From IMG/VR virus record IMGVR_UViG_2711768036_000007: a stretch of DNA of 39,927 nt. One strand, given 5' to 3'. The first letter of the stretch is position 1; the number at the start of each line of letters is the position of its first letter. The DNA comes from a virus. Its lineage: Duplodnaviria; Heunggongvirae; Uroviricota; Caudoviricetes. This document shows positions 14,711 through 16,701 of this stretch, piece by piece. The position numbers and the translations under genes are program-made. Below the pieces are notes generated by a model. The model was not told the origin of the DNA. It did not search any database and worked only from the letters and a program-made list of their open reading frames with translations.

Positions 14711-15359
14711 TGGCAGCAAATACCGAAATATTTGGGTAGTTGGCGATCTGCACGGATGCTACACGAACCTGATGAAAAAACTGGAGACGATAGGATTCGA
14801 CACCAAAAAAGACCTGCTTATCTCGGTTGGCGATTTGGTTGATCGTGGTGCAGAGAACGTCGAATGCCTGGAATTAATCACATTCCCCTGGTTCAGAGCT
14901 GTACGTGGAAACCATGAGCAAATGATGATTGATGGCTTATCAGAGCGCGGAAACGTCAATCACTGGATGCTTAATGGCGGTGGCTGGTTCTTTAATCTCG
15001 ATTACGACAAAGAAATTCTGGCTAAAGCTCTTGCCCATAAAGCAGATGAACTTCCGTTAATCATCGAACTGGTGAGCAAAGATAAAAAATATGTCATCTG
15101 CCACGCCGATTATCCTTGTGACGAATACGAGTTTGGAAAGCCAGTTGATCATCAGCAGGTAATCTGGAACCGCGAACGAATCAGCAACTCACAAGACGGG
15201 ATCGTAAAAGAAATCAAAGGAGCGGACACGTTCATCTTTGGTCATACGCCAGCAGTGAAACCACTCAAATTTGCCAACCAGATGTATATCGATACCGGCG
15301 CAGTGTTCTGCGGAAACCTCACATTGATTCAGGTACAGGGAGAAGGCGCGTGGGCATAA
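14688..15359 (+). CDS. Ser/Thr protein phosphatase (lambda ORF221/NinI-like)
   Basis: From internal Met: MRYYEK...GDLHGC...GDLVDRG...GNHE, calcineurin-like phosphoesterase motifs. Confidence 0.85.
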
Positions 15360-15868
15360 GAGAACTAAACCTCACCAAAGAACAGCACGATTGGCTGAAT
15401 GGCTGGCTTGAACTGTGGGGCGCATGGGTTTATTCAGGCCGCTTGGAAAAGCGCATGAGCAGCGTAATAGCGAAGTTCATGGAGAGCGTAGAGCCGGGAA
15501 GAGTTATGACAAGGCCAATGTGTAATGATGATGATGGAATGTTGATTTCTCAGGTCGTCGATTCCGTCATGTACATTGACAAGAAAGCCTTTGGCATCCT
15601 CCTCAGCTACTACGCTCATGGTTCATCTAAGCGAGCAATTGCATCCTACTATCACGCGACTGCAAAGCCACGCAAGATGTGTGGACGTGGTGGCGAGGGA
15701 TGGAGAAAACCTTCACTGGCAACCTGTAGAAACGAAATTGACGACATCCTGAAAGCGTCGTTATTTGTTTTGTACCAGCCAATGCAAAATGCTTTCAAAA
15801 TGCGTAAACGTGTTGAGAAAGTTAAGCATGTTGCTGTTAAAAGCCTTGACATGCAATTATCCATTTAG
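15350..15868 (+). CDS. Late-gene antiterminator Q (QuuD-like type)
   Basis: Motifs WLELWGAWV and [11 protein letters not shown] resemble Q/QuuD proteins; last gene before PR-prime and the lysis cassette. Confidence 0.65.
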
Positions 15869-15875
15869 CCATAAT
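15846..15875 (+). promoter_or_regulatory. Putative late promoter PR-prime (TTGACA-N18-CATAAT)
   Basis: Consensus -35 and near-consensus -10 at the 3-prime end of Q, just upstream of a terminator hairpin. Confidence 0.5.
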
Positions 15876-15884
15876 TAGAAGGTA

Positions 15885-15927
15885 AGCTGCCGTTAGTGAC
15901 TCTTAAGTTGCAACGGTGGCTTTTTTT
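15885..15927 (+). terminator. tR-prime-like rho-independent terminator (Q target)
   Basis: Hairpin CCGTT...AACGG followed by TTTTTTT. Confidence 0.55.
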
Positions 15928-16107
15928 GTTTGCACAACAGGTAAGAGCATTGAACCCGCAGACCTCGCGGAATTGGTGAAAGGTGCCGCGCAGTGCTCTT
16001 ATCGTTGTGGTGAAGCTCAATGGCGAGCTAGCAGATAGGCGACAGTGAAAATACTAGTCATGTAGCTGACCGCTGCGCGTACTGCAATCGGCAGCGCACC
16101 GATGGAA

Positions 16108-16132
16108 GCCGGTTCGATTCCGGCCGCCACAA
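16108..16132 (+). other. tRNA-like 3-prime fragment (T-arm GCCGG-TTCGATT-CCGGC plus acceptor-like strand), probable remnant
   Basis: Perfect T-arm consensus; no convincing full cloverleaf found by eye upstream. Confidence 0.3.
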
Positions 16133-16377
16133 CCCAAACTGAGCCGTAGCCACTGGCTATCCTGAATTCATCAGTGATAGTTACGCTGCGGCCTTCTACA
16201 CATGATCTTCGTGAAAGCGGGTGGCAGGAGGTTGCGCTAACAACCTCATGCCGTTTTGCCCGTGCATATCGGTCACGAACAAATCTGATTACTAAACACA
16301 GTAGCCTGGATTTGTTCTATCAGTAATCGACCTTATTCCTAATTAAATAGAGCAAATCCCCTTATTGGGGGTAAGAC

Positions 16378-16701
16378 ATGAAGATGCCAGAAAAACATGA
16401 CCTGTTAGCCGCCATTCTCGCGGCAAAGGAACAAGGCATCGGGGCAATCCTTGCGTTTGCAATGGCGTACCTTCGCGGCAGATATAATGGCGGTGCGTTT
16501 ACAAAAACAGTAATCGACGCAACGATGTGCGCCATTATCGCCTGGTTCATTCGTGACCTTCTCGACTTCGCCGGACTAAGTAGCAATCTCGCTTATATAA
16601 CGAGCGTGTTCATCGGCTACATCGGTACTGACTCGATTGGTTCGCTTATCAAACGCTTCGCTGCTAAAAAAGCCGGAGTAGAAGATGGTGGAAATCAATA
16701 A
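16378..16701 (+). CDS. S: Holin S (class I, dual-start MKM)
   Basis: 107 aa; [41 protein letters not shown] matches lambda S as I recall it. Confidence 0.9.

What the first reader, a model, noticed from the sequence alone, without database searches (positions are those of the whole stretch)
16000..16140. tRNA-like 3-prime fragment in the Q-to-holin interval
Between the tR-prime-like terminator and S there are ~450 bp of non-coding DNA containing a perfect T-arm (GCCGG-TTCGATT-CCGGC) plus a 7-nt acceptor-like strand at 16108..16132. I could not fold a full cloverleaf: a candidate 5-prime acceptor strand lies ~127 nt upstream, which is too far. This is the slot where many lambdoid phages carry tRNA genes, so it may be a decayed or interrupted tRNA, or a secondary attachment site.
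Basis: seen in the sequence. Interest (0 to 1): 0.4.

Follow-up and report, generated by a model that had tools for sequence, protein, structure and literature searches.

The report
Unannotated tRNA-shaped RNA in phage late leader
The "tRNA fragment" is the 3' end of an intact, conserved ~130-base tRNA-shaped RNA that no tRNA finder, Rfam family or genome record recognises; it sits in an exchangeable hairpin "cassette" slot that phage lambda itself also has, and its function is unknown.

Summary
The observed T-arm is real (16108-16124). Bases 16004-16133 fold into a 130-nt, five-helix tRNA-shaped RNA ("alpha"): a 9-bp acceptor-like helix, D arm, long arm, invariant hairpin and canonical T arm. 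Across 28 diverse copies 94% of cells pair (31-45% when partners are slid) and 14 pairs show compensatory changes. The long arm's apical loop carries a 6-nt palindrome (ACUAGU here) that stays self-complementary in 28/28 copies while changing sequence, which implies RNA-RNA self-pairing. ARAGORN and Rfam find nothing, and GenBank and RefSeq annotate nothing. Alpha also occurs in N-gene leaders and in stand-alone promoter-driven RNA clusters of unrelated Salmonella and Pantoea phages. In the window it follows a conserved ~20-bp hairpin (15933-16009) whose loop is hypervariable. Lambda has the same two-hairpin scaffold after tR', with other inserts. It is therefore neither a decayed tRNA nor an attachment site. 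Most likely it is cut from the late transcript (RNase III and/or RNase P; inferred) and acts as a stable, self-associating tRNA mimic. Its function is unknown.

The parts
15846..15875 (+). pR'-type late promoter (TTGACA-18-CATAAT), overlapping the end of Q (15350-15868)
   Evidence: Consensus scan, 11 of 12 matches. HK75, 98% identical here, annotates pR' at the same position.
15886..15927 (+). tR'-type terminator hairpin plus T-run. Late transcription reaches the element only after Q antitermination (inferred).
   Evidence: HK75 and Sf6 annotate Tr' here. Sequence. A weak hairpin-plus-U-run match appears.
15933..16009 (+). Holder hairpin P1. The 5' arm is CACAACAGGTAAGAGCATTG (15933-15952), the insert is 15953-15990 (38 nt), and the 3' arm is CAGTGCTCTTATCGTTGTG (15991-16009). 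The helix is about 20 bp with one bulged A. Its last 6 nt (16004-16009) are shared with the alpha acceptor helix.
   Evidence: Conserved arms around 48-55 distinct inserts. Helix 93% paired against 32-59% slid, with 6 compensated pairs against 0-3. Present in lambda at about 44,787-44,863. Fold.
16004..16137 (+). Alpha RNA: the whole tRNA-shaped domain, including the 4-nt tail CCAA
   Evidence: Own covariance model scores 150.8 bits, E 2.7e-30. Structure counts.
16004..16012 (+). 5' strand of the 9-bp acceptor-like helix (GTTGTGGTG). It pairs with 16125-16133 (CGCCACAAC).
   Evidence: 4 of 9 pairs show compensatory changes and 96% of cells pair. Variant helices GGTGTGGTG/CACCACACC, GGTGAGGTG/CACCTCACC, GATGTGGTG/CACCACATC and ATTGTGATG/CTTCACAAT.
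16014..16029 (+). D-like arm AGCTC-AATGGC-GAGCT, with the invariant GG of a tRNA D loop
   Evidence: 100% paired. The stem is nearly invariant, so it is uninformative for covariation.
16031..16085 (+). Long arm standing where an anticodon arm would be. Helices: 16031-16034/16082-16085, 16038-16041/16071-16074 and 16043-16045/16066-16068. Conserved asymmetric internal loop: ATA (16035-16037) opposite GCGCGTA (16075-16081). Apical loop of about 20 nt.
   Evidence: 8 pairs in the two helix segments show compensatory changes, e.g. GCAG/CTGC, GTGT/ACAC and GGG/CCC.
16053..16058 (+). Self-complementary hexamer ACTAGT in the apical loop: a candidate kissing-loop dimerisation site
   Evidence: Self-complementary in 28/28 copies. 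Outer pair UA 15, AU 12, GC 1; inner pair UA 20, GC 6, CG 1, UG 1. 0 of 500 shuffles reach the observed score.
16087..16103 (+). Invariant hairpin ATCGG-CAGCGCA-CCGAT in the position of a class II tRNA variable arm. Its 7-nt loop lacks U33 and a purine at 37, so it is not an anticodon loop.
   Evidence: Invariant in the 28 aligned copies except for C/T at the first loop base.
16108..16124 (+).
   Evidence: 2 of 5 pairs compensated and 100% paired. The loop UUCGAYU is conserved.
16138..16377 (+). Conserved leader shared with lambda, Sf6, CUS-3 and HK629, running to the S start. It is not part of the RNA domain but marks the right-hand mosaic boundary.
   Evidence: Alignment A1. CUS-3 annotates it as boundary sequence bsq3.
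16378..16701 (+). S holin gene, the first gene of the late operon
   Evidence: ORF list. Homologues annotated in HK75, Sf6 and lambda.

Best explanation
Window 16004-16133 encodes an intact member of an unannotated family of ~130-nt tRNA-shaped RNAs, called alpha here. SHOWN: it has a 9-bp acceptor-like helix stacked on a canonical 5-bp T arm with a UUCGAUU loop, and a D-like arm with the GG dinucleotide, so a tRNA elbow is possible. An extended arm with a conserved internal loop replaces the anticodon arm, and there is one further invariant hairpin. The extended arm ends in a loop whose central hexamer is always self-complementary. Alpha sits in the second of two holder hairpins that follow the late terminator tR'. 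Phage lambda has the same two holders with different inserts, and Sf6-type phages have two real tRNA genes in the slot instead. INFERRED: the RNA is made only as part of the Q-antiterminated late transcript. The ~20-bp holder helix P1 folds first and is cut by RNase III, as reported for the lambda late and N leaders. That frees GUUGUG to pair with the downstream CACAAC and complete the acceptor helix. RNase P and 3' trimming may then act on the tRNA-like fold, releasing a stable small RNA. Two copies of this RNA pair through their palindromic loops. It acts in trans as a tRNA mimic, most plausibly by occupying a host factor that recognises tRNA shape, such as a processing or modification enzyme or a tRNA-targeting defence nuclease. 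The target is unknown.
For: Structure: 37 pairs are 94.3% paired, against 31-45% when partners are slid. 14 pairs (98 cells) change on both sides, against 3-6 pairs (9-25 cells) slid, and 0/500 shuffles reach the covariation score. Palindrome: 28/28 copies self-complementary with 3 and 4 pair types; its two central bases are adjacent, so they cannot pair within one molecule. The invariant CUAG at the D-stem junction cannot be the partner, because the loop variants CGCG, CCGG and CUGG would break that pairing. Independence from context: the same domain lies after tR' with P1 (window, HK75), between a lambda-type nutL and the N start codon (L133), between two terminators upstream of a holin-like gene (L143, L147), and in gene-free gaps on the strand opposite the tail genes with its own promoter-like site in Skate-type phages, next to a real tRNA-Ile. 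Family identity: own model gives 128-157 bits for members and 15-28 bits for tRNAs, tmRNA and other inserts. Non-coding: 1-nt indels in loops and compensatory stem changes. Scaffold in lambda. Processing precedent: titles of Daniels et al. 1988 (RNase III processing sites in the Q-dependent late transcript) and Steege et al. 1987 (N leader processing), cited in PMC7547250 and PMC5371410. Competing helices are near-isoenergetic (-83.4 against -80.0 kcal/mol), and the 5' prefix folds with the P1 base closed.
Against: There are no expression, end-mapping or binding data, so every processing step and the trans function are inferred. The two RNase III papers could not be read, so placing their cleavage sites on these helices is unverified. 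The window copy ends C-CAA rather than the A-CCA seen in many relatives, so a tRNA-like 3' end is not universal. The D stem, the invariant hairpin and the internal loop never vary and so give no covariation evidence. The sequences are related and were collected with sequence patterns, which inflates shuffle-based significance and biases the context counts. In lambdoid phages the position in the leaders of N and of the late operon is equally compatible with a purely cis role.
Confidence: 0.55

Rival explanations
1. Purely cis-acting leader element. The hairpins and the tRNA-like fold exist only as RNase III / RNase P processing or stability signals that set the 5' end, half-life or translation of the downstream lysis (or N) mRNA. 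The excised piece has no function of its own.
For: Most copies lie in leaders of the late operon or of N. Lambda's N and late leaders are reported RNase III targets. The holder helices are long enough (~20 bp) for RNase III.
Against: Skate-type phages carry alpha in a promoter-to-terminator RNA cluster with no downstream ORF on that strand. Unpaired loops, the internal loop and the covarying palindrome are conserved across contexts, which a simple cleavage signal would not require. Many unrelated inserts occupy the same holders, so alpha-specific features are not needed for the slot itself.
Confidence: 0.2
2. The element works mainly at the DNA level. The conserved holder sequences (CACAAC...GTTGTG...CACAAC) are recombination 'boundary sequences' that let phages swap cassettes. 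The hairpins and palindromes reflect DNA sites, not RNA function.
For: The conserved arms coincide with mosaic boundaries, annotated bsq3 and bsq4 in CUS-3. There are about 43 insert families in the same holders, and one insert family occurs in both holders. Arm sequence is more conserved than structure alone would require.
Against: Pairing tolerates G.U but not the equivalent A.C on the other strand, e.g. GTTGTGG/CCACAGC, UG pairs in P1 and alpha, and UCUGGA in the palindrome. Strand-specific tRNA motifs (T loop, D-loop GG) and a five-helix fold with compensatory changes are not explained by DNA recombination sites. This may still be true as an additional property of the holders.
Confidence: 0.1
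3. An unusual but working decoding tRNA, for example one with a large insertion or intron that is removed, or with the invariant hairpin as its anticodon arm.
For: Canonical T arm and D-loop GG. Many copies end in discriminator A plus CCA. Same slot and strand as real phage tRNAs. A real tRNA-Arg is fused to the same holder in L011 and L037.
Against: Not detected by ARAGORN, or by the Rfam tRNA model above threshold. The acceptor helix is 9 bp, not 7. The only 7-nt loop (CAGCGCA) has A at position 33 and C at 37, where tRNAs have U and a purine. No bacterial tRNA intron of this kind is known (own knowledge). The window copy lacks an in-register CCA.
Confidence: 0.05
4. One reading: a decayed or interrupted tRNA gene, or a secondary attachment site derived from a host tRNA 3' end.
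For: A tRNA-type T arm and acceptor-like strand in a slot that holds tRNA genes in relatives.
Against: The whole 130-nt unit is conserved at 74-99% identity in E. coli, Salmonella and Pantoea phages, with compensatory changes in four helices. A pseudogene would not keep pairing. It has no counterpart in most E. coli genomes, matching only 340 of 5,426, so it does not copy a core host tRNA. In P22-like phages, att-type tRNA fragments lie next to int (PMC8022706), not in the late leader.
Confidence: 0.03

Closest known systems
Phage lambda late-leader and N-leader RNase III-processed hairpins (Daniels et al. 1988, Virology 167:568; Steege et al. 1987, J Biol Chem 262:17651; known to me only from titles in reference lists and from memory)
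   Same: Same genomic slots. Lambda has CACAACAGGTAAGAGCA...GCTCTTTCCGTTGTG followed by a second hairpin closed by GTTGTGCTG/CAGCACAAC directly after tR'. Lambda's N-leader hairpin is closed by GGCTTTGGGGTGTGTG/CACACACCACCAAAGC, the same type of helix that closes alpha copies in N leaders.
   Different: Lambda's inserts are unrelated to alpha: model R1 finds nothing in either lambda leader at E<=1. The tRNA shape, the palindromic loop and the occurrence outside leaders are not features of the lambda hairpins as described.
tRNA genes at the 5' end of lambdoid late operons (Sf6 and phage 21 Asn/Thr; phage L Asn/Leu; PMC8022706)
   Same: Same slot, strand and mosaic boundaries. The 3' ends align base for base with Sf6 tRNA-Thr. 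T arm and D-loop GG as in tRNAs.
   Different: 130 nt, 9-bp acceptor helix, no anticodon loop, an extra arm, and no detection by tRNA finders.
tmRNA tRNA-like domain (Rfam RF00023)
   Same: An acceptor helix plus T arm without an anticodon arm, and an ACCA end in many copies. It is the only Rfam model giving any signal (10-11 bits).
   Different: Far below the 47-bit cut-off. No pseudoknots, no tag ORF, no G3.U70 pair, and ARAGORN tmRNA mode is negative.
ROOL and GOLLD RNAs (PMC12286853)
   Same: Phage- or prophage-encoded structured RNAs of unknown function, often next to tRNA genes, that self-associate through loop-loop contacts.
   Different: They are 500-800+ nt with unrelated folds and form 8- and 14-mer cages. 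Alpha is 130 nt, tRNA-shaped, and its self-association is only inferred. No Rfam match.
HIV-1 dimerisation initiation site and phi29 pRNA (own knowledge)
   Same: A 6-nt palindrome in an apical loop that varies while staying self-complementary (DIS). A phage RNA that multimerises through loop-loop pairing (pRNA).
   Different: No sequence or structural homology and different biology. Lambda-type packaging needs no RNA.
tRNA-like processing modules (MHV68 tRNA-miRNA units, MALAT1 mascRNA, bacterial YrlA; own knowledge)
   Same: A tRNA-shaped module adjoining another hairpin in one transcript, used by tRNA-processing enzymes to define RNA ends (TMER, mascRNA). A tRNA-like domain in a bacterial or phage non-coding RNA (YrlA).
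   Different: Order and partners differ. No YrlA match was listed in any Rfam scan. In YrlA the RNA ends are at the opposite side of the tRNA-like module.

Membership tests
tRNA (Rfam RF00005 / ARAGORN) | Detected by a tRNA covariance model or ARAGORN above threshold | tested here: not met
   0 genes in the window. No Rfam hit at gathering threshold. The same tools find the Sf6 and Skate tRNAs.
tRNA (Rfam RF00005 / ARAGORN) | 7-bp acceptor stem, 73-93 nt overall, anticodon arm with a 7-nt loop carrying U33 and a purine at 37 | tested here: not met
   9-bp helix, 130 nt. The only 7-nt loop is CAGCGCA (A33, C37). An extended arm with a ~20-nt loop stands in the anticodon-arm position.
tRNA (Rfam RF00005 / ARAGORN) | T arm with a T-psi-C-R-A type loop and D loop with GG (elbow) | tested here: met
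   GG-UUCGAUU-CC and AAUGGC are conserved in all 28 aligned copies. The tertiary contact itself is not testable here.
tmRNA (RF00023) | Score above the 47-bit cut-off; tag-peptide ORF with resume codon; pseudoknots; G3.U70 | tested here: not met
   10-11 bits. ARAGORN is negative. There is no conserved ORF, since the candidate stop UAA is absent in the window subtype. Positions 3 and 70 form U-A.
tRNA pseudogene / decayed tRNA | Loss of pairing and neutral drift relative to intact relatives | tested here: not met
   94% of cells paired and 14 compensated pairs across phages of three host genera.
Phage attachment site within a tRNA gene | Identity to the 3' part of a host tRNA/tmRNA gene, present in host genomes without the prophage; normally next to int | tested here: not met
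   Only 340 of 5,426 complete E. coli genomes match, with 1-2 places in each that has any. No significant match to the E. coli rrnH tRNAs or ssrA. The site lies between Q and S.
Lambda-type late-leader scaffold (two holder hairpins after tR') | CACAAC-AGG-TAAGAGCA ... TGCTCTTNNC-GTTGTG hairpin directly after the late terminator, followed by a second domain closed by GTTGTG.../...CACAAC and then CCAAACTGAGCCGTAGCC | tested here: met
   Window 15933-16150 against lambda 44,787-44,960. More than 120 viral contigs match the pattern.
E. coli RNase III substrate | About two turns (~20 bp) of mostly regular double helix; cleavage demonstrated | tested here: inconclusive
   P1 forms about 20 bp with one bulge. 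Cleavage is not testable with these tools, and the lambda papers are not held.
Alpha RNA family (defined here, model R1) | Full-length match to R1, with five helices and a palindromic apical hexamer | tested here: met
   150.8 bits over 16004-16137 (the window copy is part of the model, but 11 other copies from different contexts score 128-157). ACTAGT at 16053-16058.
ROOL / GOLLD / other curated phage RNAs | Rfam model match | tested here: not met
   No match in the window or in seven related loci at gathering threshold, nor in permissive scans.

The most novel reading that the evidence does not exclude
Lambdoid and other enterobacterial phages carry a cassette system for small structured RNAs. 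Conserved 'holder' helices in the N leader, the late leader and stand-alone RNA operons are cut by RNase III or RNase P to release exchangeable inserts; at least about 43 insert families were seen here. The alpha insert is a self-dimerising tRNA mimic that acts in trans on a host tRNA-recognising factor, for instance as a decoy against tRNA-targeting anti-phage nucleases, in the very slot where other phages carry replacement tRNAs.
Probability: 0.25. Interest if true: 0.85.

Novelty: new variant of a known kind. Interest (0 to 1): 0.64.

Why it matters
Lambda and its relatives are the best-studied phages, yet this RNA is not in Rfam, GenBank or RefSeq annotation. It is present in 161 of 5,426 complete E. 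coli genomes and in many phage isolates, sometimes under spurious protein annotations. If the inference holds, there would be three consequences. First, the space between the late terminator and the lysis genes, and between nutL and N, would be a site where phages display and exchange small functional RNAs, and not merely a regulatory leader. Second, it would add a compact, experimentally tractable example of a natural self-associating tRNA mimic, with HK75 and E. coli K-12 as the system. Third, it would offer a new angle on why phages keep tRNA genes in this slot. In practice, tRNA finders and "no model above threshold" rules miss it.

Tried and rejected
1. A standard tRNA, tmRNA or any curated RNA family. 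ARAGORN and Rfam were run at gathering and at permissive thresholds on the window and on related loci. Nothing appeared beyond a 10-11-bit tmRNA 3'-end match.

2. A mini-tmRNA with a tag ORF. One subtype reads AUG...GCG UAA, but the stop and the frame are not conserved.

3. Inserts as mimics of host stable RNAs. From memory, one beta insert resembles 16S helix 11 and the window loop resembles the ssrA 3' region. blastn-short of all inserts against E. coli rrnH and ssrA gave no significant match apart from a D-arm match of one tRNA-like insert to tRNA-Ile, so I dropped this.

4. An anticodon hidden in the apical loop (CUA, CGC or CUG flanked by U and G). The palindrome explains the pattern better.

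5. An internal pseudoknot between the loop CUAG and the invariant GAGCUAG. The loop variants break it.

6. Integron attC-like sites, a hammerhead core, MITE or IS200-type ends, CRISPR-like or TIGR-like repeats. I considered these from the sequence alone. The consensus features do not fit, each genome has only one or two copies, and no cognate protein gene is nearby. None was pursued.

7. Pas sRNAs of EPEC/EHEC prophages (10.64898/2026.05.13.724894). These are Hfq-binding sRNAs near holin or Q genes, and the paper does not describe this scaffold. Their sequences were not compared.

8. The genome-contig scan used too strict a pattern. It returned one contig, a probably mis-binned MAG, so taxonomic breadth beyond phage collections is not established.

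9. The two 1980s RNase III papers could not be read.
Full report
**1. The observation**

The window reads GCCGG-TTCGATT-CCGGC at 16108-16124, followed by CGCCACAAC at 16125-16133. The T-loop motif GGTTCGANTCC occurs once in the 39.9-kb window, against 0.07 expected from shuffles.

The element lies in about 450 bp without a credible ORF, between these features:
- Q at 15350-15868.
- A pR'-type promoter at 15846-15875.
- A tR'-type terminator at 15886-15927, annotated in 98%-identical HK75.
- The holin gene S at 16378-16701.

ARAGORN reports 0 tRNA or tmRNA genes. Rfam at gathering threshold reports nothing. A permissive Rfam scan gives only an 11-bit match to the 3' end of tmRNA, against a cut-off of 47.

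**2. What occupies this slot in relatives**

A megablast search against phage genomes and the resulting alignment show that the Q-to-S interval is mosaic.
- Sf6, BTP1 and others carry tRNA-Asn and tRNA-Thr here. The 3' end of the Sf6 tRNA-Thr aligns base for base with the 3' end of the window element, and all phages are alike from that point to S.
- HK75 and several others match the window over its full length.
- CUS-3 and HK629 share the first ~85 nt and the last ~12 nt but have unrelated middles.

PMC8022706 makes the same point for P22-like phages.

**3. The "too far" strand is the real partner**

Bases 16004-16012 (GTTGTGGTG) pair with 16125-16133 and close a 130-nt domain, which I call alpha. 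The same domain is found in:
- Salmonella siphoviruses (Skate, Akira, seszw, INT55) at 92-95% identity.
- ST1UNAM at 81% and Pantoea phage PdC23 at 78%.
- A second subtype in BIS08P22 and in many IMG/VR contigs.

In all, the loci fetched held 62 distinct sequences and 127 copies.

I aligned 28 diverse copies (A2) and tested an explicit five-helix structure.
- 94.3% of cells form standard pairs, against 31-45% when the 3' partners are slid by 1-3 columns.
- 14 pairs (98 cells) carry changes on both sides, against 3-6 pairs (9-25 cells) in the slid controls.
- 0 of 500 shuffles reach the observed covariation score.
- Compensatory changes occur in the acceptor-like helix, both segments of the long arm, and the T stem. 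Examples for the acceptor-like helix are GTTGTGGTG/CGCCACAAC, GGTGTGGTG/CACCACACC, GGTGAGGTG/CACCTCACC, GATGTGGTG/CACCACATC and ATTGTGATG/CTTCACAAT.
- The D stem and one hairpin (AUCGG-CAGCGCA-CCGAU) never vary, so they say nothing either way.

The sequences are related and were collected by pattern, so the shuffle figures overstate significance. The slid controls and the number of distinct pair types are the sturdier evidence.

**4. Anatomy in window coordinates**

| Feature | Coordinates |
|---|---|
| Acceptor-like helix | 16004-16012 / 16125-16133 |
| D-like arm | 16014-16018 / 16025-16029, loop AAUGGC |
| Long arm, helices | 16031-16034/16082-16085, 16038-16041/16071-16074, 16043-16045/16066-16068 |
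| Long arm, conserved internal loop | AUA opposite GCGCGUA |
| Invariant hairpin | 16087-16103 |
| T arm | 16108-16124 |
| Tail | CCAA, 16134-16137 |

The T loop (UUCGAUU) and the D-loop GG are those of a tRNA elbow. It departs from a decoding tRNA in three ways:
- The acceptor helix has 9 bp.
- There is no anticodon loop. The only 7-nt loop has A33 and C37.
- The whole is 130 nt.

Many relatives end in ...CACCACACC-A-CCA. The window copy ends in C-CAA.

One-base indels in loops, together with the compensatory changes, rule out a protein-coding reading. That includes the CDS that some GenBank records place here ("polyubiquitin-A", "hypothetical protein").

**5. A covarying palindrome**

The centre of the ~20-nt apical loop is a hexamer: ACUAGU in the window (16053-16058), and ACCGGU, UCUAGA, UCGCGA, GCUAGC or UCUGGA elsewhere.
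- It is self-complementary in 28 of 28 copies. The outer position shows three pair types and the inner position four.
- The two central bases are adjacent, so they cannot pair within one molecule.
- The only other CUAG in the RNA is invariant. It would not match the CGCG, CCGG and CUGG variants.

The simplest reading is an intermolecular kissing contact between two copies. This is the logic of the HIV-1 dimerisation site, and of the loop-loop contacts in the phage RNAs ROOL and GOLLD (PMC12286853). This is an inference from sequence only.

**6. The upstream hairpin and the cassette scaffold**

Directly after the terminator lies hairpin P1 (15933-16009). It consists of:
- A 5' arm, CACAAC-A-GG-UAAGAGCA-UUG.
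- A 38-nt insert.
- A 3' arm, CAG-UGCUCUUA-UC-GUUGUG.

A pattern for the arms hits at least 120 viral contigs. The arms are nearly constant. The insert falls into dozens of unrelated sequences, mostly 36-51 nt.

Where the arms do change, they change together (L145, L172, ST1UNAM unit 1, L039). The helix is 93% paired against 32-59% slid, with 6 compensated pairs against 0-3.

The element that follows P1 is likewise closed by GUUGUG.../...CACAAC, and it holds one of:
- alpha;
- a second tRNA-shaped class, "beta", in which a D-like loop GCUGA is complementary to a T-like loop UCAGC, with one doubly compensated variant GUCGA/UCGAC;
- more canonical tRNA-like inserts;
- other sequences.

In L011 and L037 a genuine tRNA-Arg(UCU) is fused to P1. 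Its first acceptor bases have been overwritten but still pair through G.U.

All-against-all comparison gives about 43 insert families. One family occurs in both holders at 87-88% identity.

**7. Lambda has the same scaffold**

In NC_001416 the same P1 arms begin at about 44,787, immediately after the 6S/tR' terminator. A second hairpin closed by GTTGTGCTG/CAGCACAAC follows, and then CCAAACTGAGCCGTAGCC as in the window.

Alpha copies also lie between a lambda-type nutL and the N start codon (L133). There they are closed by GCTTTGG-GGTGTGGTG/CACCACACC-A-CCAAAGC. Lambda's own N-leader hairpin is closed by GGCTTTGGGGTGTGTG/CACACACCACCAAAGC.

Both lambda leaders are reported RNase III targets: Daniels et al. 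1988 and Steege et al. 1987, seen only as titles in the reference lists of PMC7547250 and PMC5371410. Neither paper is held. That the holder helices are those RNase III sites is therefore my inference.

**8. Context independence**

- In Skate-type Salmonella phages, the P1-alpha unit lies in a gene-free gap between tail genes, on the strand opposite to them. It is preceded by a promoter-like site (TTGACA-17-TAGATT) and ends at a terminator hairpin. In Skate a real tRNA-Ile lies on the same strand.
- In L143 and L147, alpha lies between two terminators upstream of a holin-like gene.
- A rough tally of 116 copies away from contig edges gives 64 linked to P1 (28 of them with a lambda-type S within 450 nt), 4 of Skate type, about 25 of early-leader type, and the rest other. 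The sampling is pattern-biased.

An RNA that keeps its loops and helices in leaders of two different operons, and in a stand-alone RNA cluster, is more likely a product in its own right than a mere cis signal.

**9. A model that fits**

A covariance model of alpha (R1) scores the window copy at 150.8 bits (16004-16137) and all other copies tested at 128-157 bits. Real tRNAs, the ssrA 3' end, a beta insert and a tRNA-like insert score 15-28 bits. Alpha therefore shares the tRNA-type architecture but is a separate family.

Permissive Rfam scans of two further contexts again show only a 10-bit tmRNA signal.

In complete E. coli genomes, 340 of 5,426 have a match and 161 have 80% or more of the P1-alpha unit. 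Genomes that have any match have 1-2 places, and RefSeq annotates nothing there. This also rules out a copy of a core host tRNA, and so the attachment-site idea.

**10. How it probably works**

Shown:
- The fold, the palindrome, the scaffold and its presence in lambda.
- The position downstream of pR'/tR' on the S strand.

Inferred:
- Alpha is transcribed only in the Q-modified late transcript.
- P1 folds first. The 5' prefix folds with CACAAC/GUUGUG closed.
- RNase III cuts the ~20-bp helix.
- GUUGUG then pairs with the downstream CACAAC to complete the acceptor helix. The two conformers differ by only 3.4 kcal/mol.
- tRNA-processing enzymes may trim the ends.
- The released RNA dimerises through its loop and acts in trans as a tRNA mimic.

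The target is unknown. A tRNA-shape-recognising host factor, possibly an anticodon-nuclease-type defence, is one guess. It is prompted only by the fact that other phages keep real tRNAs in the same slot.

**11. Rivals**

- A purely cis processing or stability element. This is plausible for lambdoid leaders but does not fit the stand-alone clusters or the conserved loops.
- A mainly DNA-level recombination boundary. This fits the conserved arms and the mosaic edges, annotated bsq3 and bsq4 in CUS-3. It does not fit G.U-tolerant, strand-specific covariation.
- An odd decoding tRNA. It fails the anticodon-loop and acceptor-length tests.
- A decayed tRNA or an att site. contradict this.

**12. Verdict**

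The feature is a real, intact and apparently undescribed tRNA-shaped RNA family, housed in a leader scaffold that lambda shares. I found no description of it in Rfam, in genome annotation, or in eight full-text literature searches. Older subscription literature could not be searched. Confidence in the structure is high. Processing and function remain inferences.

Noticed in passing
L210 (lambda 44,400-45,300), about lambda 44,787-44,941; L209 (lambda N leader): Phage lambda itself has the two-holder scaffold right after tR'. Its N-leader hairpin uses the same type of closing helix as alpha copies in N leaders. The annotated lambda orf-64 (44,621-44,815) overlaps tR' and the 5' arm of the first holder, so it is probably not a gene.
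   Followed up: partly
L003 (CUS-3) 684-974, L004 (HK629), L008 (ep3) 2572-2721, L178: A second tRNA-shaped insert class, 'beta'. Its D-like loop GCUGA is complementary to its T-like loop UCAGC, with one doubly compensated variant GUCGA/UCGAC and one G.U variant. The central part is hypervariable, about 20-170 nt.
   Followed up: partly
L011 7030-7190 and L037 9653-9810: The holder hairpin is fused to a genuine tRNA-Arg(UCU). The first acceptor bases are overwritten to GTGGCAT and still pair with ATGCTGC through two G.U pairs. The junction of holder and acceptor therefore appears to be precise.
   Followed up: partly
L007 (ST1UNAM) 2213-2645: Two tandem holder units. The first holder of the second unit contains an insert 87-88% identical to the insert of lambda's second holder, so inserts can move between holders.
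   Followed up: yes
window 15953-15990: The window's first-holder insert (AACCCGCAGACCTCGCGGAATTGGTGAAAGGTGCCGCG) is the commonest of 48-55 distinct first-holder inserts, found in 60 or more loci. The first holder accommodates dozens of unrelated inserts of 36-51 nt. What these short inserts do is unexplained.
   Followed up: partly
GenBank records ON470589 and ON470594 ('polyubiquitin-A'); MH321493, OP745620 and PV340546 ('hypothetical protein'): Spurious protein annotations laid over the alpha RNA.
   Followed up: no
L004 (HK629) 84-596: An HNH endonuclease ORF lies between the putative pR' and the tR'-type terminator, in the place of the Q 3' end seen in the other phages.
   Followed up: no
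L132 (JAUVQU010000080.1, 'Cellvibrionaceae MAG'): A 9.7-kb contig nearly identical to this enterobacterial-phage Q-to-S region, including P1 and alpha. It is probably mis-binned or a contaminant.
   Followed up: no
L005 2640-2740, L007 2645-2740, L009 2655-2750, L172: Skate-type RNA clusters end with another conserved long hairpin (CTTAACATCCAGC...GCTGGATGTTAAG) before the tRNA-Ile or the terminator. This is a further unannotated module.
   Followed up: no
L062, 139-152 nt downstream of its holder: TAAGGAGGTGATCC, a perfect 14-nt complement of the 16S rRNA 3' end. This is an unusually long Shine-Dalgarno-type match.
   Followed up: no
window 16138-16377: The 240 nt upstream of S are conserved in all phages compared, including lambda and Sf6 (annotated as boundary sequence bsq3 in CUS-3). 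I did not check whether this region corresponds to the holin-adjacent Pas sRNAs of 10.64898/2026.05.13.724894.
   Followed up: no
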